Source: Escherichia coli (GTDB lineage Bacteria; Pseudomonadota; Gammaproteobacteria; Enterobacterales; Enterobacteriaceae). From it: 64,000 bases of DNA. The stretch is taken from assembly GCF_024502345.1 (NCBI RefSeq), contig NZ_JALDNN010000001.1, one strand, 5' to 3'. Position numbers and translations under genes: made by a program. The notes beneath the pieces are model-generated. The model saw only the letters and a list, made by a program, of their open reading frames with translations. It did no database searches and was not told the origin of the DNA. Below are positions 6,817 to 24,312 of this stretch, in pieces; position 1 is the stretch's first letter; each line of letters opens with the position of its first letter.

Positions 6817-7095
6817 ATGACCAGAATGAGCACCATTTACAGCAGACTTTCATATGGATCAGGAACCACGCTTGCCGGCTGCGGTGTATCAGCGAAGGCA
6901 TATGCCGAAACAGCTAAAACAGCAAAAGAGGTGTCCTGGATGTTGGCCGACAGAATTGCAGGGTTAAGCCTGAGTGACTGGGCAATTATTGTCGGTATCG
7001 CATGCACAGTTATCACCTGTGCAGTGAACTGGTATTACAGGAAAAAGGAAAGGGAGGACCGGCTTAATGGCAATGTCACCAAAGCAGAAGAATAA
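6817..7095 (+). CDS. phage holin
   Basis: 92 aa, hydrophobic helix WAIIVGIACTVITCAVNWYY, charged C-terminus, immediately upstream of endolysin. Confidence 0.7.
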   Translation: MTRMSTIYSRLSYGSGTTLAGCGVSAKAYAETAKTAKEVSWMLADRIAGLSLSDWAIIVGIACTVITCAVNWYYRKKEREDRLNGNVTKAEE

Positions 7096-7615
7096 ACTGA
7101 GCGCAGCGGTCGTTGGGTTAATTCTTGCCGGGGCTTCCGCACCCGTGATTCTCGATCAGTTTCTGGATGAGAAAGAGGGTAACAGCACAACAGCGTACAA
7201 GGACGGCTCTGGTATATGGACCATTTGTCGTGGCGCTACGATGGTTGATGGCAAGCCAGTAGTTCAGGGCATGAAGCTGTCTGCTGAGAAATGTTCCAAG
7301 GTGAACGCCATAGAACGCGACAAGGCGCTGGCGTGGGTCGAGCGAAACATCAAGGTGCCACTGACCGAACCACAGAAAGCCGGGATCGCGTCTTTCTGCC
7401 CATATAACATCGGTCCCGGAAAATGTTTCCCATCTACGTTCTATAAGCGAATAAATGCTGGCGACCGTGAAGGTGCCTGTGAAGCGATCCGCTGGTGGAT
7501 AAAAGACGGTGGTCGCGATTGTCGTCTGACCAAAGGGCAGAAGAACGGTTGCTATGGTCAGGTTGAACGGCGAGACCAGGAAAGCGCGTTGACGTGCTGG
7601 GGGATAGACCAGTGA
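7067..7615 (+). CDS. phage endolysin, lysozyme family with N-terminal signal-anchor (SAR-type)
   Basis: 182 aa; N-terminal hydrophobic [18 protein letters not shown] followed by lysozyme-like body; position between holin and Rz. Confidence 0.8.
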
Positions 7616-8127
7616 GCCTGCGCTATCAGTTCATTGTTATTTTGTTGCTGGTGGCCGTTGCATTCTTCGCGGGTAGTGTATGGAGCAGCCGCGGTTGGGA
7701 AAAGAAGTGGGCCGAGCGTGACAGCGTAGAATCATCGCAAACAGCGAACGCACAGACCGCCGCTCGCATGATTGAACAAGGGCGTATTATTGCCCGTGAT
7801 GAGGCTGTAAAAGATGCACAAGCACAAGCCGCTAAATCCGCTGCCACTGCTGCTGGCCTGTCTGCCACTGTTAACCAGCTGCGTACCGAAGCAACAAAGC
7901 TTGCCACTCGCCTGGACGCCGCAAAGCACACCGCAGATCTTGCCACTGCCGTCAGAAGCAAAACAGCCGGAGCCGACGCCGCAGTGCTCGCCGACATGCT
8001 CGGACGCCTTGCAGAAGAAGCTCGATATTATGCTGAGCGATCTGACGAAAGCTACCGGGCAGGAATGACGTGTGAGCGCATTTACGACTCAGTGAGGCAG
8101 TCAAACAACAACAGGGTTAGAAGATGA
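7594..8127 (+). CDS. i-spanin (Rz-like); true start may be GTG at 7612
   Basis: N-terminal TM ([15 protein letters not shown]), coiled-coil Ala/Gln-rich periplasmic domain; Rz1 nested in +1 frame. Confidence 0.8.
7814..8068 (+). CDS. o-spanin (Rz1-like lipoprotein) nested inside Rz
   Basis: Signal peptide with lipobox LLTSC, proline-rich mature region; entirely embedded in Rz in another frame. Confidence 0.75.
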
Positions 8128-8354
8128 ACGCAGAAAACCTAAGTGAAGCGTATTACCTCAATAACGATATAAAAGAACTACAACTTCAGAAAAGCATACT
8201 GGAAAGTGGTGCCGGACTTGGTGTGACAATCCAGTCTACCTATCAGGATAACGCCTTTCTTGATGCCATACGCCCGCATGCAGTGGCTGAACTTGATCGC
8301 CGTATTGTGGAGAAGAAAAAAAACCTCTCCACTCTGGGTGTTACATTCTCTTAA
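8124..8354 (+). CDS. hypothetical protein, start overlaps Rz stop (ATGA)
   Basis: 76 aa ORF translationally coupled to Rz; no recognisable motif. Confidence 0.45.
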
Positions 8355-8701
8355 ATGAGAACAACAATAAAAGGTTATGTCTGCTTTGCCACATTCTGAG
8401 AGTATGAGTTTTATTTGGTAGTCAATCAGTTACTTTATTGGTTTGCTTTCCGATGGAAGATAGATGTTTCCACAGAAGGGGCAAATTAACGTTATATTGT
8501 TTTTTATTCTCGACAGACTGTGCTTTGACTGGCGGGAGCAATGAGGACAAGTACTTTTCACATGGCGTAAAGTACGCATCTTGATATCTTTGAGTATCGA
8601 CATGTTGATTGTCCTGGTGGGCGGTTAACAACCATACACCACATGTTGGCTAATAGCTTCTTTTATAACCGTTACGATGTAGTCGTTAGCCATAATCAAT
8701 C

Positions 8702-8727
8702 AAGCCTCGCAATAGCGGGGCTTTTTA
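8702..8727 (+). terminator. possible hairpin plus T-run
   Basis: agcctcgc-aata-gcggggct followed by ttttt. Confidence 0.35.
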
Positions 8728-8738
8728 ACAACTGAGGA

Positions 8739-8942
8739 ATGAGCATTACAGTAGTTCTTACAGCTAAGCAGATTGAAGACCTGGCTGCCTTCGCAAAAGA
8801 AGATGGCCAGCCACAATATACCATCACTACCGGAACAATCCCTGAGTTCGAAGCGGATGATGGCGAGGTTATCCCTGAGTACACCGGGCTGATTGCCTAT
8901 TCCGAGTCGCTAGAGCATAGCGTTCTACAGCTCGATAACTAA
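8739..8942 (+). CDS. hypothetical small acidic protein
   Basis: 67 aa, Asp/Glu-rich, SD-like gaggaa upstream; a degenerate copy of its 3' end recurs at 10.8-10.96 kb. Confidence 0.5.
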   Translation: MSITVVLTAKQIEDLAAFAKEDGQPQYTITTGTIPEFEADDGEVIPEYTGLIAYSESLEHSVLQLDN

Positions 8943-8969
8943 CGAATCAACATAACTTTCCATCCGCCA

Positions 8970-9135
8970 TGACACCACAATGCTCGTAGACATGCCAGGA
9001 AGCCTGGCAGAAGAAGCTCGATACCATGCTGAACGCGCTGATGAAAACTACCGAGCAGGAATGACATGTGAGCGGATTTATGAGTCCGTAAAAATACTAA
9101 CAATGAACCGTAGAGGAAAAATAATAGCTCTATAA
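8970..9135 (+). pseudogene. duplicated 3' fragment of the Rz gene
   Basis: 9006-9092 is an imperfect direct repeat of 8011-8097 (gcagaagaagctcgata..gcaggaatgac.tgtgagcg..attta); would encode ..[27 protein letters not shown].. Confidence 0.7.
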
Positions 9136-9514
9136 ATTAAGATGTTGACGGTTTTCGTGGATAAATTTGTGAATTTTTACTATGAAGGAAATACGACTCT
9201 TCCTTGAGTCAAAATCCCTGACAACTTAGGGTGATAGATAAAGGTCTTACGCAGCATGACATAATTTTCGATTTAAGCTATTTAAATTAATTTTTAAGAT
9301 CAAAACCCACTGAGATTTACTTACAAAACTAAACCTTGCTATGTCTGGTTAATCATGCGTTAATGAATGTCTGGTTTGTAACGAATTTATCTGAAGCAGT
9401 CGCTGTAATAATTTTATTCCTTGTTCCTGTTGAGATTTCCTTGTTAGCTTTTCTCTCTGATAAATTTTTTTCGGACCATTCTGCCCAAGGGCTTACTCAA
9501 TAAAGGTAATGTTT

Positions 9515-9727
9515 ATGTCTAATAAAATGACTGGTTTAGTTAAATGGTTTAATCCTGAAAAAGGTTTTGGTTTTATCACTCCAAAAGATGGTAGTAAAGA
9601 TGTGTTTGTTCACTTCTCTGCTATCCAGAGTAATGATTTCAAGACGTTGAATGAGAATCAGGAAGTTGAATTTAGTGTTGAACAGGGACCTAAAGGCCCC
9701 ACGGCAGTTAATGTCGTGGCTGTATAA
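9515..9727 (+). CDS. cold-shock protein (CspA family), prophage-borne
   Basis: 70 aa [23 protein letters not shown]...; long AT-rich 5' leader typical of csp genes. Confidence 0.9.
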
Positions 9728-9931
9728 GGTAACTGTTATTACTAATAATATTCACTTCAGATGTCCGTGTTGCCACGGATCTCAGTACCGAACGTCAAAC
9801 TTTGATGTTACTGAAAAAAATCCTTTCGGAGCAAAATGTATTTTTTGCAAATCAACAATGATTACATTTGATAATATTGCACTGTACATTCGTTCTGGTC
9901 AGTCTTCGTTAGAATTCAGAAAATAAATTTC

Positions 9932-9955
9932 AGGCTCCTTATGGAGCCTTTTTTG
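9932..9955 (+). terminator. rho-independent terminator
   Basis: aggctcc-ttat-ggagcct followed by tttttt. Confidence 0.7.
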
Positions 9956-9999
9956 TATGCTGAACCGACAATCTCTGTAAGAGACATCACGGTAAAATT

Positions 10000-10230
10000 A
10001 TGAAAAAAGTCATCGTTTTTTTTAATGCAGAACCAGCAGTTGTTGTAACCGTAATGAAAGGTATTACTACGATAATGCGTGAGTTTCCCAATGGGGAAAA
10101 AGCACACCTACCCGTGATGTCAGCGGGATTTCCATCTCTGACAGGAGACCATAAAATAGTTTATGTAGCCTCTGATCGTGATGTCAGTTCAGAAGAGATC
10201 CTCGAGGCAGCCTCGAAGCTTTTGAAATGA
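10000..10230 (+). CDS. hypothetical protein
   Basis: 76 aa ORF; weak RBS; no recognisable motif. Confidence 0.35.
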   Translation: MKKVIVFFNAEPAVVVTVMKGITTIMREFPNGEKAHLPVMSAGFPSLTGDHKIVYVASDRDVSSEEILEAASKLLK

Positions 10231-10434
10231 GATCTGGTTGTTTCGTGACCGACCCGGATTTTAGTACAGTGGTTTGTGTGGTCGCGAGCTCTTTTGCATG
10301 AAGATTGTACTGCAAACTATTGATAATTGAGTCTTTCTATTCTATCTTTTAAACATATCAGCGCTTATACAAGTGCTCTACGGGGAATGTAACATGCCTG
10401 GCGTTGATACGTTAGAGATCAAGAGAGGTAAACA

Positions 10435-10608
10435 ATGAACGTCGAAGATTTAAAAAGAAAAACTGAAGCGGATATTTCTGAATTCATCACAAAAAAAATT
10501 ATTGAACTCAAAAAAAAGACAGGAAAAGAAGTTTCCGATATCCAGTTTAATGCTCGTGAAAAAATGACTGGGCTTGAAAGCTATGATATTAAAATCACAT
10601 TAATCTAA
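10435..10608 (+). CDS. GnsA/GnsB-family small protein
   Basis: 57 aa MNVEDLKRKTEADISEFITKKIIELKKKTGKEVSDIQFNAREKMTGLESYDIKITLI; strong similarity to recalled GnsA/GnsB; below the 60-aa cutoff of the ORF track. Confidence 0.8.
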   Translation: MNVEDLKRKTEADISEFITKKIIELKKKTGKEVSDIQFNAREKMTGLESYDIKITLI

Positions 10609-10632
10609 TTGTTATAAGACTCAGTTCGAGTG

Positions 10633-10667
10633 AAAAAGCATTATCTTGAAAGGTAATGCTTTTTTAT
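10633..10667 (+). terminator. rho-independent terminator after gns-like gene
   Basis: aaagcatta-tcttgaaagg-taatgcttt followed by tttatttc. Confidence 0.7.
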
Positions 10668-10760
10668 TTCTGTCATAAAATTTAGAACGTTGTCAAAGCC
10701 TTCACTTCTAACCACAGATTTTCTGCTTACCTTTTAACGGGTCCTCCTTGACGATTCTGA

Positions 10761-10964
10761 CCATCGAGGGGCAGCAGCGGCGCGGGATTTGGAGCATTTT
10801 TGATTCTTCACGCAACCATTTCAGCATTTGATGCTGATGACGGAACACTATCCCCGAATACACTGGGTTTGTTGCATTCTCTGATTCAAAAGAACACGGT
10901 GTGCTTCAACTTGGCTGAGCAGGCATTACAGCAGACATTCACTGAGTGCCTGCGACAAAGTTAA
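10761..10964 (+). pseudogene. start-less 3' remnant related to the 8739-8942 gene
   Basis: Frame encodes ..FDADDGTLSPNTLGLL.. resembling ..FEADDGEVIPEYTGLI.. of the 8739 ORF; no in-frame start codon after the upstream stop. Confidence 0.45.
10921..10958 (+). repeat. ~35-bp boundary repeat, copy 1
   Basis: cattacagcagacattcactgagtgcctgcgacaa; near-identical copy at 11311-11343. Confidence 0.6.
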
Positions 10965-11049
10965 ATGGCATCAAGCATGCGATGATGATTGATTAATAAT
11001 TGAGCTATGCATGGTATAATAAGCCCCATTCATTGAAAGGTTAACCACC

Positions 11050-11214
11050 ATGTCATTTTTCGATTATGCAATGCAGCGTGTTGGGCTTGCAGCCAATACG
11101 ACTGTCATGTGCCCGATATGCGGACATAAATCCACACACTCGACCACGAAAGTACGCCAACAACAGGCGTTACTTTGCCCTAAATGTAAATCGCTGTTTG
11201 TCATTCACAGATAA
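11050..11214 (+). CDS. small zinc-ribbon protein (CxxC...CxxC)
   Basis: 54 aa MSFFDYAMQRVGLAANTTVMCPICGH...LCPKCKSLFVIHR; upstream -10 tataat at ~11015; two terminators downstream. Confidence 0.6.
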   Translation: MSFFDYAMQRVGLAANTTVMCPICGHKSTHSTTKVRQQQALLCPKCKSLFVIHR

Positions 11215-11232
11215 CATGCGACCTGCTGAATA

Positions 11233-11257
11233 TAACCGCCTACGGGCGGTTTTTTAT
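11233..11257 (+). terminator. rho-independent terminator
   Basis: accgcctacgggcggt followed by tttttt. Confidence 0.75.
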
Positions 11258-11268
11258 TGCCATCACAA

Positions 11269-11293
11269 AGGCCACTTTCGAGTGGCTTTTTTA
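11269..11293 (+). terminator. second rho-independent terminator
   Basis: gccactttcgagtggc followed by ttttttaa. Confidence 0.65.
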
Positions 11294-11310
11294 ATGGTCA
11301 TCACGACGGG

Positions 11311-11343
11311 TATTACAGCAGGAATTACTGAGTGCCTGCGATA
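11311..11343 (+). repeat. ~35-bp boundary repeat, copy 2
   Basis: tattacagcaggaattactgagtgcctgcgataat; matches 10921-10958. Confidence 0.6.
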
Positions 11344-11370
11344 ATGCTCAATATTTTTATCGGAGTGAAT

Positions 11371-11559
11371 ATGCCACCGCGCACACCGAAGGCCGGCCTG
11401 AAAGGGGCGATACAAAAAAGGGAAAAAATGAAAAGACATAAGCGAAATAAAAAAGCCACCACATCTGCAAATGTGATGGCTGGCATTCGGATTAATTCAG
11501 GTTGGCTGAATAAGTTAGCCGCAGATATTACTAAAATAATTAATGAAGCATGTCCCTAA
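11371..11559 (+). CDS. hypothetical small basic protein
   Basis: 62 aa from ATG with ggag SD; Lys/Arg-rich; no known motif. Confidence 0.3.
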   Translation: MPPRTPKAGLKGAIQKREKMKRHKRNKKATTSANVMAGIRINSGWLNKLAADITKIINEACP

Positions 11560-11956
11560 TCTCATCTGAGATATCTCTTGGCCCTGCAGGCTGAGGCGCA
11601 ACCAACCGGGTCGGAAGTCTCTCGAAGAAACCACCACCACCATGATGATGAAAACCCCGGTTATTTTTATAACTATTGAAGTTACTGTCGGTAGTGAGAA
11701 GGATGTTGCACTGGTGCGAGCAGTCAACAACAACGACATCACCTGCATTCAGGTGCATTCGTTTGTGAAGAAATTGCATAAGTCTCCTTATCAAGAGGCA
11801 ATCAGCACTCCTCTCAAGGCTGGTACGCCAACGTCCCACCGCTGACGGGCTGAGCCATTACCTTACCCAGACTCAACGATAAGTAACATCCTGATATTCA
11901 GACAGTAACTGTAATCGATAATGCTGAAGAATAGGCAGTAAATACAGGTGACTGAT

Positions 11957-12595
11957 ATGGCAACACTGAAGGATTTATCAAACCAGTTAAAGCAACTGCA
12001 AAAGCAAATCCCGTTTGCCACAGCTCAGGCGATGACAAAAGTTGTACGCCAGATTGAGTTGGCTCAGAAGACGGCATTCGAACGACATCTGGAGAGCCCC
12101 ACGCCGTTTACCGTTAAATCAGTTGGTTCGGTGGCGGCAAGAAAGAACAATCTGACCGCAAAGGTTTTTGTCCGTGATACCGCTGCTGGTTATCTGGAAC
12201 CATTCGAGTTTGGCGGAGAGCACAAGCTCAATAGCCAGGCTCTATTAAATCCCAAGAACGTTAAGCTAAACAAATACGGCAACATGCCGCGTAATAAGCT
12301 CTCACAGCTTAAAGCAAAGGAAAATGTATTCGTAGGTGAGGTTGATGGCGTTAACGCTGTCTGGCAGCGTAAGAAGCCGATGAAAGCTAAGAAGCGACGG
12401 GCCAAACGTTCCGCTAACGGGACGCGAAGACCGAAACGCAAACAGCGTTCTCCAAAGCTTTTGATCCGGTTTGGTGATGCGCTACCTGTGACTCCAGTGC
12501 TGGGGTATATGGATAGGGCCCGTACCATGGCGAACGCACTGCTACCGTCTGCTTTAAATCAGGCGATAGCAGAAGCCATCAGGACGGCAAAATAA
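11957..12595 (+). CDS. hypothetical phage protein with highly basic segment
   Basis: 213 aa (alternative GTG start at 11948); SD aggtga; region RKKPMKAKKRRAKRSANGTRRPKRKQRSPK suggests nucleic-acid binding. Confidence 0.6.
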   Translation: MATLKDLSNQLKQLQKQIPFATAQAMTKVVRQIELAQKTAFERHLESPTPFTVKSVGSVAARKNNLTAKVFVRDTAAGYLEPFEFGGEHKLNSQALLNPKNVKLNKYGNMPRNKLSQLKAKENVFVGEVDGVNAVWQRKKPMKAKKRRAKRSANGTRRPKRKQRSPKLLIRFGDALPVTPVLGYMDRARTMANALLPSALNQAIAEAIRTAK

Positions 12596-12605
12596 AAGCA
12601 GTAAC

Positions 12606-13109
12606 TTATAAGTTAATTTCGCAAGCTTTTATGAAGCTGTTTACTGCAGTTGTCGATCCAGAAACATTGGCTGACATGGAATGCTGGTTTCCGCCATCCT
12701 TTGTTTGCACACCAACTAACACTTTGGATTTCGCCCCCTGAAGCTGCTTAAGCACTGTTTTCAGTTGGTCCGTGTCATCCGATTGAATCTGGAGGCTCTG
12801 AACATTACGTCTTGAAAGGGTAGCATCGAGCTTCACTGCGGTATTCCCGTCGACCTTCATTATCAGGTCCATTGGTACCTCTGATAGTGATTCGGTGCTT
12901 TTATCCATTTCAACGTATGCCGCCGATAGCTTTTCTTTAGTGCAGTCAAACACAATGGCGCCATTGTCGGATGAAACCTCGCCAAGCATCATTGCTTTCT
13001 TACCACCAGAGAAAAGGTCATCTTCAGTATTAGTTACCCACTGGGCATGAGCAATTGGTGATGCCAGCACTGCGGCTACGAAAGTTATTTTGATTATATT
13101 GTTACCCAT
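12606..13109 (-). CDS. secreted/periplasmic protein of unknown function (opposite-strand cargo gene)
   Basis: 168 aa; strong SD aaggagaatgta; signal peptide MGNNIIKITFVAAVLASPIAHA|QW; convergent with and 10 bp from the preceding gene. Confidence 0.6.
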   Translation of the reverse strand: MGNNIIKITFVAAVLASPIAHAQWVTNTEDDLFSGGKKAMMLGEVSSDNGAIVFDCTKEKLSAAYVEMDKSTESLSEVPMDLIMKVDGNTAVKLDATLSRRNVQSLQIQSDDTDQLKTVLKQLQGAKSKVLVGVQTKDGGNQHSMSANVSGSTTAVNSFIKACEINL

Positions 13110-13252
13110 TACATTCTCCTTGTATTGAATAGGAATAATCATAGTCGGAGCGAATGGTCGAAGCCATTAAAAAAATGGGTCCTTCCTGAGACTTTTGTAA
13201 GGCACGGGCATTGCGCGCCGCGGTGTTTTCCTAGCTACAACTTTCAGATTTG

Positions 13253-13402
13253 TGTCCCATGTCCCACCTCTGGCGATCATTACGGACACCTCGCCAGCTC
13301 TGGCTATTCCAGTTTATTCCAGTGGGACATTCTGGTGGGACATGGCAAAAATGTCCCAGGCGAATGTCCCACCCCAGAAAATGTCCCAGGTGATGTCCCA
13401 TG
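13253..13402. repeat. Cluster of eight TGTCCCA/TGGGACA heptamer repeats immediately upstream of terminase small subunit
   Basis: Copies at 13253, 13260, 13323(rc), 13336(rc), 13352, 13365, 13382, 13394; the last overlaps the terS ATG. Confidence 0.7.
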
Positions 13403-13969
13403 ACCACGATGAACCAGAGTCAGTACGCACAACATTCAGGTGTGGATCGCAAAACAATTGGTCGGTGGATTAAAGCCGGGCGCTTCATTGTGATGGACGG
13501 AGACCTGATTGACGTAGAGGCCAGCGATGCGGCATTGAAGAAAAACCGCGATGGCAAAGACCCGCGCGCCTCGAACGCGAAGAAAAAGAAAACTCCCGTC
13601 GTTAGCGATAACGATGATGACGGTGATGAAATCAATAAAACTGTCCGCCAGATAATGCTCACTGAAGGGGCAGATCTTTCGAGAGAGGAAGCGGGACGTA
13701 TCCGCGAGAATTACATGGCCCTGCAGGCAAAGCTGCAGTATGAAAAAGACAGCGGCCAGCTTATTGAGCTGACAGCAGCCGAGGAGGTTTTATTCAACGC
13801 CTTTCGCCAACAGCGTGATGCCTGGCTTAACTGGCCGTCCAGGGTGGCGCCGCTAATGGCTGCTGATCTGGATGTACCGGCGGACAGGATGACAGAGGTG
13901 CTGATTGAACATGTCCACAAACACATCTCAGTCCTCGGAGAGCCAGAGTTTAACCCGGCAGAAGATTGA
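13400..13969 (+). CDS. terminase small subunit (Nu1-like, N-terminal HTH)
   Basis: 189 aa; N-terminal ..VDRKTIGRWIKAGRF.. winged-helix pattern as in lambda Nu1; followed by large terminase. Confidence 0.7.
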   Translation: MTTMNQSQYAQHSGVDRKTIGRWIKAGRFIVMDGDLIDVEASDAALKKNRDGKDPRASNAKKKKTPVVSDNDDDGDEINKTVRQIMLTEGADLSREEAGRIRENYMALQAKLQYEKDSGQLIELTAAEEVLFNAFRQQRDAWLNWPSRVAPLMAADLDVPADRMTEVLIEHVHKHISVLGEPEFNPAED

Positions 13970-19899: not shown

Positions 19900-20949
19900 A
19901 TGGAAAATATTTTTGATACCAGCGTGCTGGTGCAGGTTGTTCCTAACCTGAAAACCAGTCAGAACTGGCTGCTCGATCGCTTCTTCCCGAATGTCGTGAC
20001 TTACGAGACTGAAGAAGTGGCGATTGATGTTGATGTCGGCCTGCGTCGTATGGCGCCGTTCGTCTCCCCGCTGGTGGAAGGTAAGCTGGTCGAATCCCGT
20101 AAATACCAGACCAATACCTTCAAACCGGCATACATCAAAGATAAGCGCGCGCCGGACCTGCGCAAACCTATCCGCCGCCAGATTGGTGAGCGTATTGGCG
20201 GGGAATATACCGCTGCCGAGCGCGAAATGCTGAACCTTCAGTTTGAAATGACTGACCAGATTGACATGATCAACCGTCGTCTGGAATGGATGGCGGCGAG
20301 TGCGCTGGTGTCTGGGACCGTAACCGTCGCCGGGGAGGGCTATGAAACTAAGGTGGTGGATTTCGGGCGTGCTTCGGATCTGACCATCACTCTTAGCGGC
20401 TCGGATAAATGGCCACTGACCGTTGCAGCTGGCGCTACCAATACCCAGCCATCAGATGACATTGAAATCTGGCAGACTACTTTCCTGAAAGAGTCCGGCT
20501 CTGTCGCCACGGATCTGGTCTTTACGAATAAGTCATGGCGTGCATTCCGACTGGATACCACCATCAAGGATAACGCCATTACATTCCCGGCGCTGAGCCC
20601 GTTTGGTAACCAGATTAACGCCGGCCCACAGGTAATGAAGGGCGCAATTTATAAAGGGCGCTGGGGTAACTTTGACCTCTGGTTATATAACGACTGGTTT
20701 ATTGACCCGCTGGACAACGTCGAGAAGCCTATGATCCCCGATGGCGCTGTCATTATGAGTGGTGCCGATCTGATGGGTACCCGCGCCTTTGGCGTTATCC
20801 TGGACCCGGCTTTCAACTACGGTCCGCTGGCTTATGCGCCAAAATCCTGGGTGAAAGAAGATCCAGCCCAGCGTCTTATCCTGATGCAATCCTCCCCGCT
20901 GGTAATTCCGAGCCGGGTAAATGCATCCCTCTGCGCAACGGTGGTCTGA
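19900..20949 (+). CDS. major capsid protein (lambda gpE-like)
   Basis: 349 aa from MENIFDTSVLVQVVPNL; gene order. Confidence 0.8.
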   Translation: MENIFDTSVLVQVVPNLKTSQNWLLDRFFPNVVTYETEEVAIDVDVGLRRMAPFVSPLVEGKLVESRKYQTNTFKPAYIKDKRAPDLRKPIRRQIGERIGGEYTAAEREMLNLQFEMTDQIDMINRRLEWMAASALVSGTVTVAGEGYETKVVDFGRASDLTITLSGSDKWPLTVAAGATNTQPSDDIEIWQTTFLKESGSVATDLVFTNKSWRAFRLDTTIKDNAITFPALSPFGNQINAGPQVMKGAIYKGRWGNFDLWLYNDWFIDPLDNVEKPMIPDGAVIMSGADLMGTRAFGVILDPAFNYGPLAYAPKSWVKEDPAQRLILMQSSPLVIPSRVNASLCATVV

Positions 20950-20950
20950 T

Positions 20951-21331
20951 ATGGCAAAACAACCTAATACCGGGCTGGCTGATGATCTGAATGCAGAAGG
21001 ATCTGCCAAAGACGGCCTGAGCGTTGACAACCTGAATGCTGGCGATAACACCCAGGAAAAACAGCCTTTGAGCAAAACAGATGATGCCGAATTGTCTGTT
21101 GATGACGATGGTGGTGACGAAAAATCCGGAGACACTGAATCGCAGGAGTATGTGGTGTTGAAAGGGAATTGCATTCGTCATGACGGGGAGATGTACCGCG
21201 AAAATATGCGCATCCCTGTAACCGGCAAAGATGCTGAGCGTCTTCTGCAGTCCGGCGTTATTGCTGATGTTGATGTGCTTCGTAAGCGAGTTCTTGCTTC
21301 TCAGCCATCAGTTTCAGTTACGACAGGGTAA
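20951..21331 (+). CDS. hypothetical head-module protein
   Basis: 126 aa, acidic N-terminal half. Confidence 0.5.
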   Translation: MAKQPNTGLADDLNAEGSAKDGLSVDNLNAGDNTQEKQPLSKTDDAELSVDDDGGDEKSGDTESQEYVVLKGNCIRHDGEMYRENMRIPVTGKDAERLLQSGVIADVDVLRKRVLASQPSVSVTTG

Positions 21332-21335
21332 TGAC

Positions 21336-21695
21336 ATGGGCGTGGACTGGGATTCTCATCTTCTGAGTCCGCTGCATGATGTCTTTGGCGATGAGCACGA
21401 GTACCGTCCACGTAACGGTACTCCTTTTACAATTAACGGGATTTTTGACCGTGGTTATGCGCAGGTTGCTGAAAACCTTGATGGCGATTCAGAAATTAAC
21501 ACCTCCAGCCCGATGTTGGGTGTGCGCGATGCTGAATTTCGCAAGCTGGGTAAATCGCAACCTGCTGTATCTGACCGGGTATTTATAAAGACGGTCGGTG
21601 GTCACATCATCAATCAGTTATTTGTTGTGTCAAACGTCGAACCCGACAGTCATGGCGGATCTCGTCTTGTCCTCAATGTGGTAAAACCGCGATGA
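21336..21695 (+). CDS. putative head completion/head-tail connector protein
   Basis: 119 aa, position after capsid. Confidence 0.45.
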   Translation: MGVDWDSHLLSPLHDVFGDEHEYRPRNGTPFTINGIFDRGYAQVAENLDGDSEINTSSPMLGVRDAEFRKLGKSQPAVSDRVFIKTVGGHIINQLFVVSNVEPDSHGGSRLVLNVVKPR

Positions 21696-22237
21696 ATTCA
21701 GCAGCGATACGGCAAATGGTTGTCACTGCACTAACCGGGACAACCAGCGCGGGCGACCGCGTATTCTCTCCACGCGACTGGTCAACTTCACCAGATATGT
21801 ATCCTGTGTTGTTGGTTCAGACGCCTTTTGAACAGAAAAAATCACAGGGGCGTAATACCCCTGCTTTTACCACCCTCACCACTGTCAGGATCACTGGGCG
21901 CGTTCAGGAGTATGACGGCGATACAGTGGATGATGGAGCCATGCGGGCAGAGCTGGCGCTTGAAAGCCTTCGCGAGCAGGTGGAGCGCGCGGTGATCAAC
22001 AGCTACGAACTGACGCGGAATATTCAGAAATACGCGGAAGTTCGTTCAACCATCAATGTTGATTCAGAAGGAGAGGCCCATATGGGGCAGCTTCTTTTCG
22101 AGATCGATATAGAGCATTACCAGGGGCCGGAAGATTTTTATCCTGTCCAGTCGGTTCCCCTTGAGGGCATGGATATTGCGGTCGACATGCCAGACGGCAC
22201 AGTTAAACCGGGTATCAGCCTCAATCTTCAGGAGTAA
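21692..22237 (+). CDS. putative tail completion/terminator protein (Mu-like)
   Basis: 181 aa, directly upstream of sheath. Confidence 0.5.
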   Translation: MNSAAIRQMVVTALTGTTSAGDRVFSPRDWSTSPDMYPVLLVQTPFEQKKSQGRNTPAFTTLTTVRITGRVQEYDGDTVDDGAMRAELALESLREQVERAVINSYELTRNIQKYAEVRSTINVDSEGEAHMGQLLFEIDIEHYQGPEDFYPVQSVPLEGMDIAVDMPDGTVKPGISLNLQE

Positions 22238-22240
22238 TCC

Positions 22241-22438
22241 ATGTTTGTTAAGCCGAACAACGGGCTCAGCGTTCGCTGCCCCGTCAAGGGCATCCCATTG
22301 CCTAAAGAGGGTGCTGAAGTACCTGACAATATTTTCTGGCGTCGCCGTCTGAGCGATGGGGACGTGATCCTCTCTAAAAAGGATGAGGGCGCGCCAGAGA
22401 AACAATCATTACCTAAAAAAGCGGGAGAAAATGAATGA
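22241..22438 (+). CDS. small hypothetical tail-module protein
   Basis: 65 aa, overlaps sheath start. Confidence 0.45.
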   Translation: MFVKPNNGLSVRCPVKGIPLPKEGAEVPDNIFWRRRLSDGDVILSKKDEGAPEKQSLPKKAGENE

Positions 22439-23937
22439 CCGTACCTTTCGCTCGTGTTCCCGATAACCTGCGGGTAGGGCTTTTCTTCGTTGAGTTTGAT
22501 AACTCAATGGCGAATAACGCCACTGCCACGCAGCGCACCCTGCTTATCGGTGGGATGCTCAGTACCGGCTCAACCCTCCCTGGTATTCCGCAGCGAGTTT
22601 CCTCTTCGGATACCGTCGGTGAGCTGACAGGAAAAGGGGGAATTCTGCAGGCCATGATGGCGGCGTATCAGAAAAATGATACCGCAGCCGAAGTCTGGAT
22701 CCTGCCGCTGGAGGAAGACTCCGATTCCATGGTGGCTGCAACCGGCACCATTAGAGTGAGCAGCGCACCGACGGAAACCGGAGTGATCTCCCTTTATATT
22801 GCTGGTGAGCGCATTCAGTTGACCGTTGTAGCAACAGATACGGTGGCAGCGATCGCCACCTCTCTGGCCGCGGCGATTAACGCAAAAACCACGCTACCTG
22901 TAACCGCCAGTGCGACTACGGATACCGTAACCCTGACCGCGAAGAATCTTGGTGCTACGGGTAATGGGATCGACATTCGCCTGAACTTCCTCGGCTTACC
23001 TGGAGGCGAGTCCACACCTGCAGGCCTGGAACTGACGATTACTGCTATGTCTAACGGAGTCGGGGCTCCGGATATTACCGGCGAGCTGGCAAACCTGCAG
23101 GATCGGACATTCGATTTCATCATCAACCCTTACGACGATACAACCTCGTTGAATGTGATGAAGGAGTTCCTGTCAGACACTGGCGGTCGCTGGGCATGGG
23201 ACAAGCAGCTTTATGGCCATTCCTTTGGTACAACCACCGGGACTTACGCCCAGCTCGGTACCAAAGGTGAGCTGCGCAATAACCAGCATGAGACCCTGCT
23301 GGGCGTAAATAAATCGCCGTCCCCTTCCTGGGCATGGTCTGCAGCTTACACCGGCGCAGCTGCGGTGAGTCTGCGTAATGACCCCGGCCGCCCGCTACAG
23401 TCGCTCGCTGTTCAGGGGGTGCTTGCGCCAGAACTGCAGGATCGCTTTGAGCTGACCGAGCGTAACAATCTGCTGTACAGCGGCATTTCGACATTTACGG
23501 TCGATGACGATGGCACGGTGCGCATTGAAAACCTGATCACCACCTACCAGAAAAACAGCTATGGCGATGCAGATGACAGTTATCTGGAAGTGGAGACGCT
23601 GTTCAGCCTGATGTTTGTGACCCGCTACCTGCGCACAGCGGTGACCAGCAAGTTTGGCCGTATGAAGCTTGCTGCGGATGGAACCCGATTTGCACCTGGC
23701 GCGGCGATCGTCACGCCAAACATTATCAAGGCCGATCAGATTGCCGAGTACCAGACTCTGGTATGGAACGGTTATGCGCAGGATGCGGAGGCATTCGCAA
23801 AAAATATCATCGTCGAGCAGAACGCCAAAAATCCGAACCGCGTCGATGTGCTGTGGCCGGGAACCCTCATGAACCAGTTGCGCATTTTCGCGCTGCTCAA
23901 TCAGTTCCGCACTCGGGCTGAATCAACAGGAGCTTAA
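22435..23937 (+). CDS. contractile tail sheath protein (Mu gpL-like)
   Basis: 500 aa, followed by tube gene. Confidence 0.8.
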   Translation: MTVPFARVPDNLRVGLFFVEFDNSMANNATATQRTLLIGGMLSTGSTLPGIPQRVSSSDTVGELTGKGGILQAMMAAYQKNDTAAEVWILPLEEDSDSMVAATGTIRVSSAPTETGVISLYIAGERIQLTVVATDTVAAIATSLAAAINAKTTLPVTASATTDTVTLTAKNLGATGNGIDIRLNFLGLPGGESTPAGLELTITAMSNGVGAPDITGELANLQDRTFDFIINPYDDTTSLNVMKEFLSDTGGRWAWDKQLYGHSFGTTTGTYAQLGTKGELRNNQHETLLGVNKSPSPSWAWSAAYTGAAAVSLRNDPGRPLQSLAVQGVLAPELQDRFELTERNNLLYSGISTFTVDDDGTVRIENLITTYQKNSYGDADDSYLEVETLFSLMFVTRYLRTAVTSKFGRMKLAADGTRFAPGAAIVTPNIIKADQIAEYQTLVWNGYAQDAEAFAKNIIVEQNAKNPNRVDVLWPGTLMNQLRIFALLNQFRTRAESTGA

Positions 23938-23940
23938 ACG

Positions 23941-24312
23941 ATGGCAGGTGATACTACTAACCGCCTGGCGGGAACCGCCTATGTCACTGTTAACGGTGTG
24001 ACGGTAATGGTGGAGGGCTCGTTTAAATACCAGGCTGCCACCGTAAACCGTACCACCCTGACAGGGATGGATGGTGTGCACGGATATAAGGAAAAACCTG
24101 TGGCGCCATACATTTCTGCCCGACTGCGTGACAGTGGCGGAACGAATGTGCAGGGCTTTAACCAGCAGACGAACGTCAACGTGATCGCCGAGCTGGCTAA
24201 CGGGAAAACTATCATTGGCCGTTCACTCTGGACGGTCAACGTCCAGGAAGTGGAAAGCGAAGATGCAGTATTTGATGTTCGCTGGGAAGGCCGCGACGTA
24301 ACGGAGAACTAA
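23941..24312 (+). CDS. tail tube protein (Mu gpM-like)
   Basis: 123 aa, position. Confidence 0.75.
   Translation: MAGDTTNRLAGTAYVTVNGVTVMVEGSFKYQAATVNRTTLTGMDGVHGYKEKPVAPYISARLRDSGGTNVQGFNQQTNVNVIAELANGKTIIGRSLWTVNVQEVESEDAVFDVRWEGRDVTEN

What the first reader, a model, noticed from the sequence alone, without database searches (positions are those of the whole stretch)
11940..13250. Convergent pair of unknown function: basic 213-aa protein and secreted 168-aa protein
A plus-strand 213-aa protein with a very basic tract (RKKPMKAKKRRAKRSANGTRRPKRKQRSPK) converges, 10 bp apart, on a minus-strand gene with a strong SD and a clear cleavable signal peptide (..ASPIAHA|QW). An opposite-strand secreted protein embedded in a late operon is the classic arrangement of lysogenic-conversion or superinfection-exclusion cargo. 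Neither product matched a family I could recognise by eye. Of everything in this window, this pair is a leading candidate for an uncharacterised phage-encoded function.
Basis: partly seen in the sequence, partly recalled or inferred. Interest (0 to 1): 0.55.

Follow-up and report, generated by a model that had tools for sequence, protein, structure and literature searches.

The report
Tail-completion gene plus secreted prophage cargo gene
The two convergent genes are not a functional pair: the basic protein is an ordinary phage tail-completion protein encoded in an unusual place next to the DNA packaging site, and the secreted protein is an independently mobile prophage cargo gene whose product has the fold of the invasion protein IalB and still has no known function.

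Summary
A plus-strand gene (11957-12595, 212 aa, pI 11) and a minus-strand gene (12606-13109, 167 aa) converge 10 bp apart. The second has an AAGGAG ribosome site and an AHA|QW signal peptide. They lie between the lysis genes and cos/terminase of a prophage with a lambda-like head and a Mu-like tail.

- It is absent from the syntenic phages phiNP and BZS1.
- It is present at the ends or module junctions of Mu-like, P2-like and HNH-type prophages.
- Nearly all of these prophages have contractile tails.

Its function remains unknown. I propose, with low confidence, an envelope-level role such as superinfection exclusion. Interest is moderate.

The parts
11957..12595 (+). Gene A: 212-aa tail completion protein of the HK97 gp10 / lambda gpZ class (phrog_1924). 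It is the last plus-strand gene before cos.
12368..12457 (+). Polybasic loop of gene A (residues 138-167; 17 K/R of 30). It is a lineage-specific insertion between a beta-hairpin and the last strand and C-terminal helix.
   Evidence: Absent from the Cronus-like, Ralstonia and Yersinia phage homologues. Low pLDDT of about 54. Composition.
12606..13109 (-). Gene B: 167-aa secreted (periplasmic) protein with an IalB-like fold (phrog_19473, no Pfam family). It is a moron-type cargo gene.
13044..13109 (-). Signal peptide of gene B (residues 1-22), with predicted cleavage AHA|QW.
   Evidence: Sequence. pLDDT below 50 for residues 1-20. The AxA|xW pattern is kept in all homologues examined.
13116..13121 (-). 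Shine-Dalgarno AAGGAG of gene B, 6 nt before the ATG.
   Evidence: Sequence. Conserved as AAGGAG or AAGGGG in homologous loci.
13138..13143 (-). Conserved TATGAT, a possible -10 element of gene B's own promoter. This is an inference.
   Evidence: Kept at the same distance from the ATG in window-type and HNH-type phages while the flanks vary. No acceptable -35 was found, and the consensus scan found no promoter.
13169..13186 (+). Conserved box AAAAAAATGGGTCCTTCC immediately left of cosN. It is part of the right virion end and possibly cosQ-like.
   Evidence: Aligned with the right end of BZS1 and with the TCP-terS spacer of phiNP.
13208..13219 (+). cosN cohesive-end sequence GCATTGCGCGCC. Gene B's start codon is therefore about 98 bp (13110-13207) from the right end of packaged DNA.
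   Evidence: Identical to the experimentally determined 12-nt 5' overhang of Serratia phage BZS1 (PMC7556043; record feature; alignment).
13253..13400 (.). Array of eight TGTCCCA heptamers in both orientations. It is the probable terminase small-subunit binding region (cosB-like).
   Evidence: 8 of the window's 9 copies lie here. Repeat structure. BZS1 and phiNP carry GGTAACA repeats at the same place.
13400..13969 (+). Terminase small subunit, the first gene to the right of cos. Context only.
   Evidence: phrog_57 4.6e-36.

Best explanation
The two genes are neighbours by history, not partners.

Gene A encodes the phage's tail completion protein (TCP), the class that includes lambda gpZ, HK97 gp10, SPP1 gp16.1 and 80alpha gp51. 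By analogy with the solved 80alpha/SaPI1 neck, one or a few copies would sit in the neck lumen. [quoted passage not shown] The 30-residue polybasic loop is a lineage-specific insertion that I infer adds DNA contacts. In this phage lineage the TCP gene has moved out of the tail cluster. It is the last gene of the late transcript before cos, so it is read from the late promoter together with the lysis genes.

Gene B is a separate, horizontally mobile cargo gene. It is inserted between the TCP stop codon and the cos region and points inward from the genome end. Its product is exported by the Sec pathway, cleaved after AHA, and folds in the periplasm into an IalB-like beta-rich domain. Two invariant cysteines probably lock this domain with a disulfide. 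The gene is antisense to the late transcript and carries a conserved -10-like box, so it is most likely expressed from the prophage rather than during lytic growth.

My best guess for its role, with about 25% confidence, rests on two observations. The family is found almost only in prophages with contractile tails, and it occupies known moron hot spots. I therefore suggest it acts at the cell envelope to the benefit of the lysogen, for example by interfering with entry of superinfecting contractile-tailed phages.

What is shown: folds, family membership, export signal, mobility and gene positions. What is inferred: location in the virion, the role of the basic loop, the timing of expression and the function of B.
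For: Gene A:
- phrog_1924 'minor tail protein', E 3.8e-62 over the full length.
- The AF2 model (pLDDT 77.6) has a long N-terminal helix, beta elements and a long C-terminal helix.
- Source names for close homologues include 'minor tail protein Z' and 'HK97 gp10 family'.
- Profile-profile alignment to the gpZ family is end-to-end collinear (E 7.7e-4, probability 25%).
- The canonical gpZ slot in the tail cluster is empty here and in RcCronus.
- The mechanism of the TCP class is taken from the 80alpha neck structure paper (10.1101/2024.12.10.627806).

Gene B:
- AF2 pLDDT 85.9, pTM 0.78.
- Foldseek hits to IalB-annotated proteins (E 3e-11, TM 0.79).
- W25, C57 and C164 are invariant across 39 diverse members.
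- The signal peptide is kept in every homologue examined.
- The gene is absent from the same slot in phiNP, and two small plus-strand ORFs occupy that slot in BZS1.
- It is present after com/mom at the end of Mu-like prophages that have four different host flanks.
- It is present in Mu-like and P2-like tail modules.
- It is present between the lysis genes and HNH-TerS-TerL, beside a remnant of the TCP gene.
- A conserved TATGAT lies upstream.
- GC content is 43-45%, against 52-60% in the head genes.
Against: Gene A:
- No Pfam family matches, including HK97-gp10_like and Minor_tail_Z.
- No match by sequence to any PDB chain.
- The sequence link to gpZ is weak.
- The AF2 model is of only moderate confidence (pTM 0.56), and only about half of the protein superposes on the 109-residue 80alpha TCP.
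- Gel-band mass spectrometry of BZS1 virions found 13 proteins but not the homologue p72 (PMC7556043). A one-copy protein is easily missed this way, however.
- The gene is linked to the terminase genes rather than to the tail genes, across both siphoviruses and myoviruses.

Gene B:
- No member of the family has a known function, and IalB itself has no known molecular mechanism.
- No match to PADLOC defence models.
- No sigma-70 promoter passes the consensus scan, and there is no terminator between the genes.
- Several distant homologues lie on the same strand inside tail operons. They would be expressed late, which fits a prophage-expressed exclusion factor less well.
- The link with contractile tails was not tested against a base rate.
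Confidence: 0.7

Rival explanations
1. Gene A is not a virion protein. It is a DNA-binding accessory factor for cos recognition or packaging, a cofactor of the lambda-type terminase, in the way that HNH proteins sit next to cos in HK97-like phages.
For: Its homologues are always the last gene before cos/TerS in phages with lambda-type TerL, gpW and portal, whatever the tail type. It has pI 11 and a polybasic loop. It was not detected in BZS1 virions. No Pfam tail family matches.
Against: The only significant structural match is a tail completion protein. The basic loop is missing from many family members, so it cannot define the family's function. There is no nuclease or HNH motif and no cysteine in the sequence. 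The canonical TCP slot is empty, so the phage would otherwise lack a TCP.
Confidence: 0.1
2. Gene B is a host-interaction or fitness factor for the lysogen, comparable to lambda Bor or to Bartonella IalB. It would alter the envelope to improve survival in an animal host or under stress, and it would not be directed against other phages.
For: It has the IalB-like fold. IalB promotes erythrocyte invasion, and an IalB-domain protein is an essential periplasmic growth-zone factor in S. meliloti. It occupies the same genome position and orientation as lambda bor (my own knowledge of the lambda map). The hosts are enteric bacteria.
Against: It does not match the IalB Pfam model. Members also occur in metagenome-derived and alpha-proteobacterial prophages. 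The tight association with contractile-tailed phages is not explained by a host-virulence role.
Confidence: 0.25
3. Gene B acts for the phage during lytic growth, for example as a periplasmic lysis or release accessory, or as a factor that stops progeny virions from ejecting into debris of the lysed cell.
For: Several distant homologues lie on the same strand inside tail operons next to the tape-measure or DNA-circularisation genes, and they keep the signal peptide. In the window the gene lies just after the lysis region.
Against: In the window-type, HNH-type and Mu-end contexts the gene is a separate unit. In the window it is antisense to the late transcript, so late transcription should interfere with it. 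Functional relatives such as phiNP and BZS1 do without it.
Confidence: 0.15

Closest known systems
Tail completion proteins: 80alpha gp51 (PDB 9mu2 chain P), lambda gpZ, HK97 gp10, SPP1 gp16.1
   Different: No Pfam HK97-gp10_like or Minor_tail_Z match. It is about twice the size of gp51. It carries a 30-residue polybasic insertion found only in the enterobacterial branch. The gene lies at the right genome end next to cos and not between the head-closure and tail-terminator genes.
IalB, invasion-associated locus B protein (Pfam PF06776, COG5342; PDB 3DTD)
   Different: 15% sequence identity. Not recognised by the Pfam model in any of 39 family members. The family is carried by prophages of gamma- and other Proteobacteria, not as a chromosomal gene of Hyphomicrobiales. 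Its conserved motif is the mature N-terminus xW-T-x-x-(E/D)-D-D-(L/I)-F-x-G-G-K plus a Cys57-Cys164 pair.
Lambda bor and other morons in the lysis-to-cos interval; the P2 Z/fun slot between the tail-fibre and sheath genes (own knowledge)
   Same: Gene B is a small gene for an exported envelope protein, on the opposite strand to the late transcript, close to the right genome end. It is optional among related phages and is found at module junctions.
   Different: No sequence or family relationship to Bor or Lom. It is a soluble periplasmic protein and not a lipoprotein or outer-membrane barrel. No clear promoter-terminator pair flanks it.
T4 Sp (spackle), a periplasmic superinfection-exclusion protein. 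This is a functional analogy only, from my own knowledge.
   Same: Both are small phage-encoded proteins exported to the periplasm by a phage with a contractile tail.
   Different: There is no homology: spackle is all-helical and gene B is beta-rich. Nothing was tested here. The analogy is a hypothesis.

Membership tests
Tail completion protein (HK97 gp10 / lambda gpZ / SPP1 gp16.1 / 80alpha gp51) | Characteristic fold: long bent N-terminal helix, beta-hairpin with extended loop, long C-terminal helix. | tested here: met
Tail completion protein (HK97 gp10 / lambda gpZ / SPP1 gp16.1 / 80alpha gp51) | Match to the sequence models PF04883 (HK97-gp10_like) or PF06763 (Minor_tail_Z). | tested here: not met
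   No Pfam hit even at E <= 10. hmmsearch against PDB sequences found nothing.
Tail completion protein (HK97 gp10 / lambda gpZ / SPP1 gp16.1 / 80alpha gp51) | Detectable profile-profile homology to lambda gpZ. | tested here: inconclusive
   hhalign of A3 against a 20-sequence gpZ alignment gives a collinear alignment of 162 columns, E 7.7e-4 but probability only 25%. Against the single gpZ sequence the probability is 6%.
Tail completion protein (HK97 gp10 / lambda gpZ / SPP1 gp16.1 / 80alpha gp51) | Gene located between the head-closure (FII-like) and tail-terminator genes. | tested here: not met
   The gene lies at the right genome end before cos. That slot holds no TCP-like gene here or in RcCronus, which fits relocation.
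Tail completion protein (HK97 gp10 / lambda gpZ / SPP1 gp16.1 / 80alpha gp51) | Present in the virion neck, contacting the DNA end and the tape-measure protein; needed for efficient head-tail joining and infectivity. | not testable with these tools
   The only indirect datum is that BZS1 virion gel-band MS did not list the homologue p72.
IalB family (PF06776 / COG5342) | IalB fold as in PDB 3DTD. | tested here: met
IalB family (PF06776 / COG5342) | Match to the Pfam IalB model. | tested here: not met
   No hit for the window protein or for any of 39 diverse family members.
IalB family (PF06776 / COG5342) | N-terminal signal peptide and a small single-domain mature protein. | tested here: met
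   AHA|QW leader and 145-aa mature protein. Conserved across the family.
Phage moron / lysogenic-conversion cargo | Present or absent between otherwise syntenic phages, and found in unrelated phage backbones. | tested here: met
   Absent in phiNP and BZS1. Present in Mu-like, P2-like and HNH-type prophages.
Phage moron / lysogenic-conversion cargo | Own promoter and terminator. | tested here: inconclusive
   Conserved TATGAT upstream. No -35, no promoter by consensus scan, and no terminator in the 10-bp gap.
Phage moron / lysogenic-conversion cargo | Expressed from the repressed prophage and confers a phenotype on the lysogen. | not testable with these tools
   Needs RNA-seq or 5'-RACE and phenotypic assays.
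Bor / Lom cargo families | Sequence membership (Pfam Bor or Ail_Lom). | tested here: not met
   No Pfam, NCBIfam or PADLOC match.

The most novel reading that the evidence does not exclude
The gene B family (about 340 clusters at 50% identity, no Pfam entry, IalB-like fold, always with a signal peptide) could be a previously unrecognised class of periplasmic anti-entry (superinfection exclusion) factor. It would be carried specifically by contractile-tailed prophages and would act on the tail tip, tape-measure protein or DNA-circularisation machinery of incoming myoviruses or tailocins after they puncture the outer membrane.
Probability: 0.2. Interest if true: 0.65.

Novelty: new member of a known kind. 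Interest (0 to 1): 0.38.

Why it matters
For annotation: a large family now labelled 'hypothetical protein' in RefSeq (996 clusters at 90% identity) can be called a tail completion protein. Its fixed position next to cos shows that an essential neck component can be encoded outside the tail cluster. This matters when structural modules are delimited or engineered.

For biology: gene B defines an uncharacterised family of exported proteins that travels between contractile-tailed prophages of many Proteobacteria and shares a fold with IalB, whose molecular function is itself unknown. A phenotype for the phage-borne version would be cheap to test by plasmid expression and a phage panel. It could show what the IalB fold does, or it could add a new envelope-level exclusion mechanism. 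If no phenotype is found, the locus is an ordinary moron.

Tried and rejected
- Pfam, NCBIfam and PADLOC scans gave nothing significant for either protein. The weak hits (DUF7767, SigF, Type I specificity subunit) were rejected as noise.
- Megablast of the locus against the phage collection found nothing. tblastn of gene B against 50,697 phage records also found nothing.
- Sequence searches of PDB with family profiles gave no hit for A and only noise for B.
- hhalign of the gene A family against single-sequence gpZ was not significant. Against the 181-aa neck-region protein there was no similarity, so that protein is not a second TCP.
- I tested whether gene B evolves under diversifying selection, as an arms-race factor might. 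Synonymous sites are saturated and dN is far below dS, so there is only purifying selection and deep divergence. The apparent 'fast' divergence reflects a recombination boundary at cos: head genes have dS of about 0.1 against L038, while A and B are saturated. The idea was dropped.
- The diverse alignment A4 was too divergent for the search for related loci, so A1 was used instead.
- The consensus promoter scan found no sigma-70 promoter in 11400-13600.
- A lipoprotein reading was rejected because there is no Cys at the cleavage site.
- An HNH-type cos endonuclease role for gene A was rejected because the protein has no Cys and no HNH motif.
- Literature searches found nothing linking IalB-fold proteins with prophages.

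Full report
**Setting.** The window carries a prophage that is 99% identical over this locus to one in E. coli ET846. Related copies occur in 56 of 5,426 complete E. coli genomes. It has lambdoid early genes and a lysis cassette (endolysin 7067-7615, Rz 7594-8127). A low-GC accessory stretch follows, then the pair in question. After the pair come cos, TerS (13400-13969), a lambda-type TerL, gpW, portal, protease, decoration protein and capsid protein. A Mu-like contractile tail (sheath 22435-23937, tube 23941-24312) completes the structural genes.

**Observation.**
- Gene A is 11957-12595 (+), 212 aa, pI 11.0. Its tract RKKPMKAKKRRAKRSANGTRRPKRKQRSPK has 17 K/R in 30 residues.
- Gene B is 12606-13109 (-), 167 aa. 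AAGGAG lies 6 nt before the ATG, and the leader is MGNNIIKITFVAAVLASPIAHA|QW.
- The stop codons are 10 bp apart.
- RefSeq annotates the same two CDSs as hypothetical proteins.

**Gene A is a tail completion protein.** Pfam and NCBIfam find nothing. PHROGs assigns it full-length to phrog_1924, 'minor tail protein' (E 3.8e-62). Among 996 homologous clusters, a few sources name it 'minor tail protein Z' or 'HK97 gp10 family'.

A profile-profile comparison with a 20-sequence lambda gpZ alignment is collinear from end to end. Statistically it is weak (E 7.7e-4, probability 25%). I therefore place the protein in the TCP fold class and not in the gpZ Pfam family.

The 80alpha paper describes the mechanism of the class (10.1101/2024.12.10.627806). 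A TCP monomer inside the neck caps the DNA end with a positive surface. It also pairs its hairpin with the tape-measure N-termini. Loss of gpZ or gp16.1 lowers infectivity 100- to 500-fold.

The polybasic tract is an insertion found only in the enterobacterial branch and partly in phiAP1. It is absent from the Cronus-like, Ralstonia and Yersinia phage homologues, and it is poorly ordered in the model. That it adds DNA contacts is my inference.

**An unusual, conserved gene position.** In every phage record that has a homologue, the gene is the last one before the genome end or TerS. This holds for:
- Citrobacter phiNP, Serratia BZS1 and Acetobacter phiAP1;
- Rhodobacter RcCronus, RcSaxon and RcRhea, and Dinoroseobacter R4C;
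- the Yersinia vB_YpM phages.

These include both siphoviruses and myoviruses. Where the flanking genes are visible, they share a lambda-type packaging and head module. The canonical gpZ slot, between the FII-like head-closure gene (21231-21695) and the next neck gene, holds no TCP-like gene here or in RcCronus. This fits relocation of the only TCP gene.

Two points count against the assignment. BZS1 virion gel-band mass spectrometry did not list the homologue p72 (PMC7556043). The linkage to terminase also leaves room for a packaging-cofactor reading, which I rate at about 10%.

**Where cos is.** BZS1's experimentally determined 12-nt overhang, GCATTGCGCGCC, is identical to window 13208-13219. 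The BZS1 right end aligns with 13169-13207. Gene B's start codon is therefore about 98 bp (13110-13207) from the right end of packaged DNA. Eight of the window's nine TGTCCCA heptamers lie in 13253-13400, just before TerS. BZS1 and phiNP carry GGTAACA repeats at the same place. These are probably terminase-binding sites of differing specificity.

**Gene B is mobile cargo with an IalB-like fold.** It matches phrog_19473 (function unknown, 3.9e-99). It has no Pfam, NCBIfam or PADLOC match and no tblastn match in 50,697 phage records.

An exhaustive profile search finds 337 representative clusters. Nearly all are single-domain proteins of about 165 aa, and a few are tandem repeats. None of 39 diverse members hits any Pfam family. 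W25, C57 and C164 are invariant, and the mature N-terminus xWxTxx(E/D)DD(L/I)FxGGK is the most conserved segment. Every homologue examined keeps an AxA|xW signal peptide.

**Evidence that B is cargo and not A's partner.**
- In phiNP the TCP stop is followed directly by the cos box and terS. In BZS1 two small plus-strand ORFs fill the gap.
- A 63%-identical homologue sits after com/mom at the very end of Mu-like prophages inserted at four different chromosomal sites.
- More distant homologues lie in Mu-like or P2-like tail modules. They sit next to the tape-measure or DNA-circularisation genes, between the fibre and sheath genes, or after gpD.
- In an HNH-TerS-TerL phage type, B lies between the lysis genes and HNH, beside only the last 30-48 codons of a TCP gene. 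This is a footprint of transfer from the window-type arrangement.
- Within the window-type lineage, A and B do travel together as a right-end module. Against locus L038 the head genes have dS of about 0.1, while A and B are saturated. This places a recombination boundary at cos. Both genes are under purifying selection.

**Expression of B.** The consensus scan finds no promoter and no terminator in the 10-bp gap. A TATGAT about 28 nt upstream of the ATG is conserved across phage types while its flanks vary. The gene is antisense to the late transcript, which must cross it to reach the terminase genes. Expression from the prophage is the most likely reading, but it is inferred and not shown.

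**Function of B.** Twelve of fourteen distinct genomic contexts have contractile-tail genes within 10 kb. The other two are short contigs where this cannot be judged. I did not control this against the base rate of myovirus prophages.

Together with the periplasmic location and the moron positions, this suggests an envelope-level role linked to contractile-tail infection, such as exclusion of superinfecting phages. I hold this at about 25%. A Bor- or IalB-like host-fitness role is also about 25%. A lytic-phase role is about 15%. No literature links this fold to prophages.

**Verdict.** One gene is an ordinary structural protein in an unusual place. The other is a genuine but still unexplained cargo gene from an undescribed family. 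Interest is moderate.

Noticed in passing
window 13208-13219 and 13169-13186: The cohesive-end sequence GCATTGCGCGCC is identical to the experimentally mapped 12-nt overhang of Serratia phage BZS1. A conserved box, AAAAAAATGGGTCCTTCC, lies just to its left and may be a cosQ-like element. An HNH-TerS-TerL phage type (L043) carries a near-identical cos sequence (one mismatch in the 12 nt).
   Followed up: partly
window 13253-13400: Eight of the window's nine TGTCCCA heptamers cluster here in both orientations, directly upstream of TerS. BZS1 and phiNP have GGTAACA repeats at the equivalent place. This suggests exchanged terminase small-subunit specificities around an identical cosN.
   Followed up: partly
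window 8128-11950: The lysis-to-cos interval is a low-GC (33-45%) accessory stretch. It contains a second, partial Rz-like fragment (8980-9135), a cold-shock protein gene (9509-9727), several small ORFs in PHROG families of unknown function (10000-10230, 10435-10608) and a truncated DUF1883 gene on the minus strand (about 11582-11758).
   Followed up: partly
window 20921-22237: The neck region between the capsid and sheath genes has an FII-like head-closure gene (21231-21695) flanked by two proteins in PHROG families of unknown function (136 aa and 181 aa). No TCP-like gene is present. The 181-aa protein may be the tail terminator, but this was not tested.
   Followed up: partly
L043-L047 and L059 (about 10540-10650 in L043): A 30-48 codon remnant of the TCP gene's 3' end lies next to the gene B homologue in a different phage type. 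This is a recombination scar showing that gene B was acquired from a window-type right end.
   Followed up: yes
L022 177-2138; P0283, P0295: Some members of the gene B family are tandem fusions of two or three IalB-like domains (653, 474 and 331 aa). One lies on a short contig next to a DivIC-like gene, so it may be chromosomal and not phage-borne.
   Followed up: no
L010-L013: The same Mu-like prophage, ending in com, mom and the gene B homologue, is inserted at four different chromosomal sites in E. coli (near pta-ackA, otsBA-flhDC, nrdAB and inside another lambdoid prophage). This is as expected for a transposable phage.
   Followed up: no
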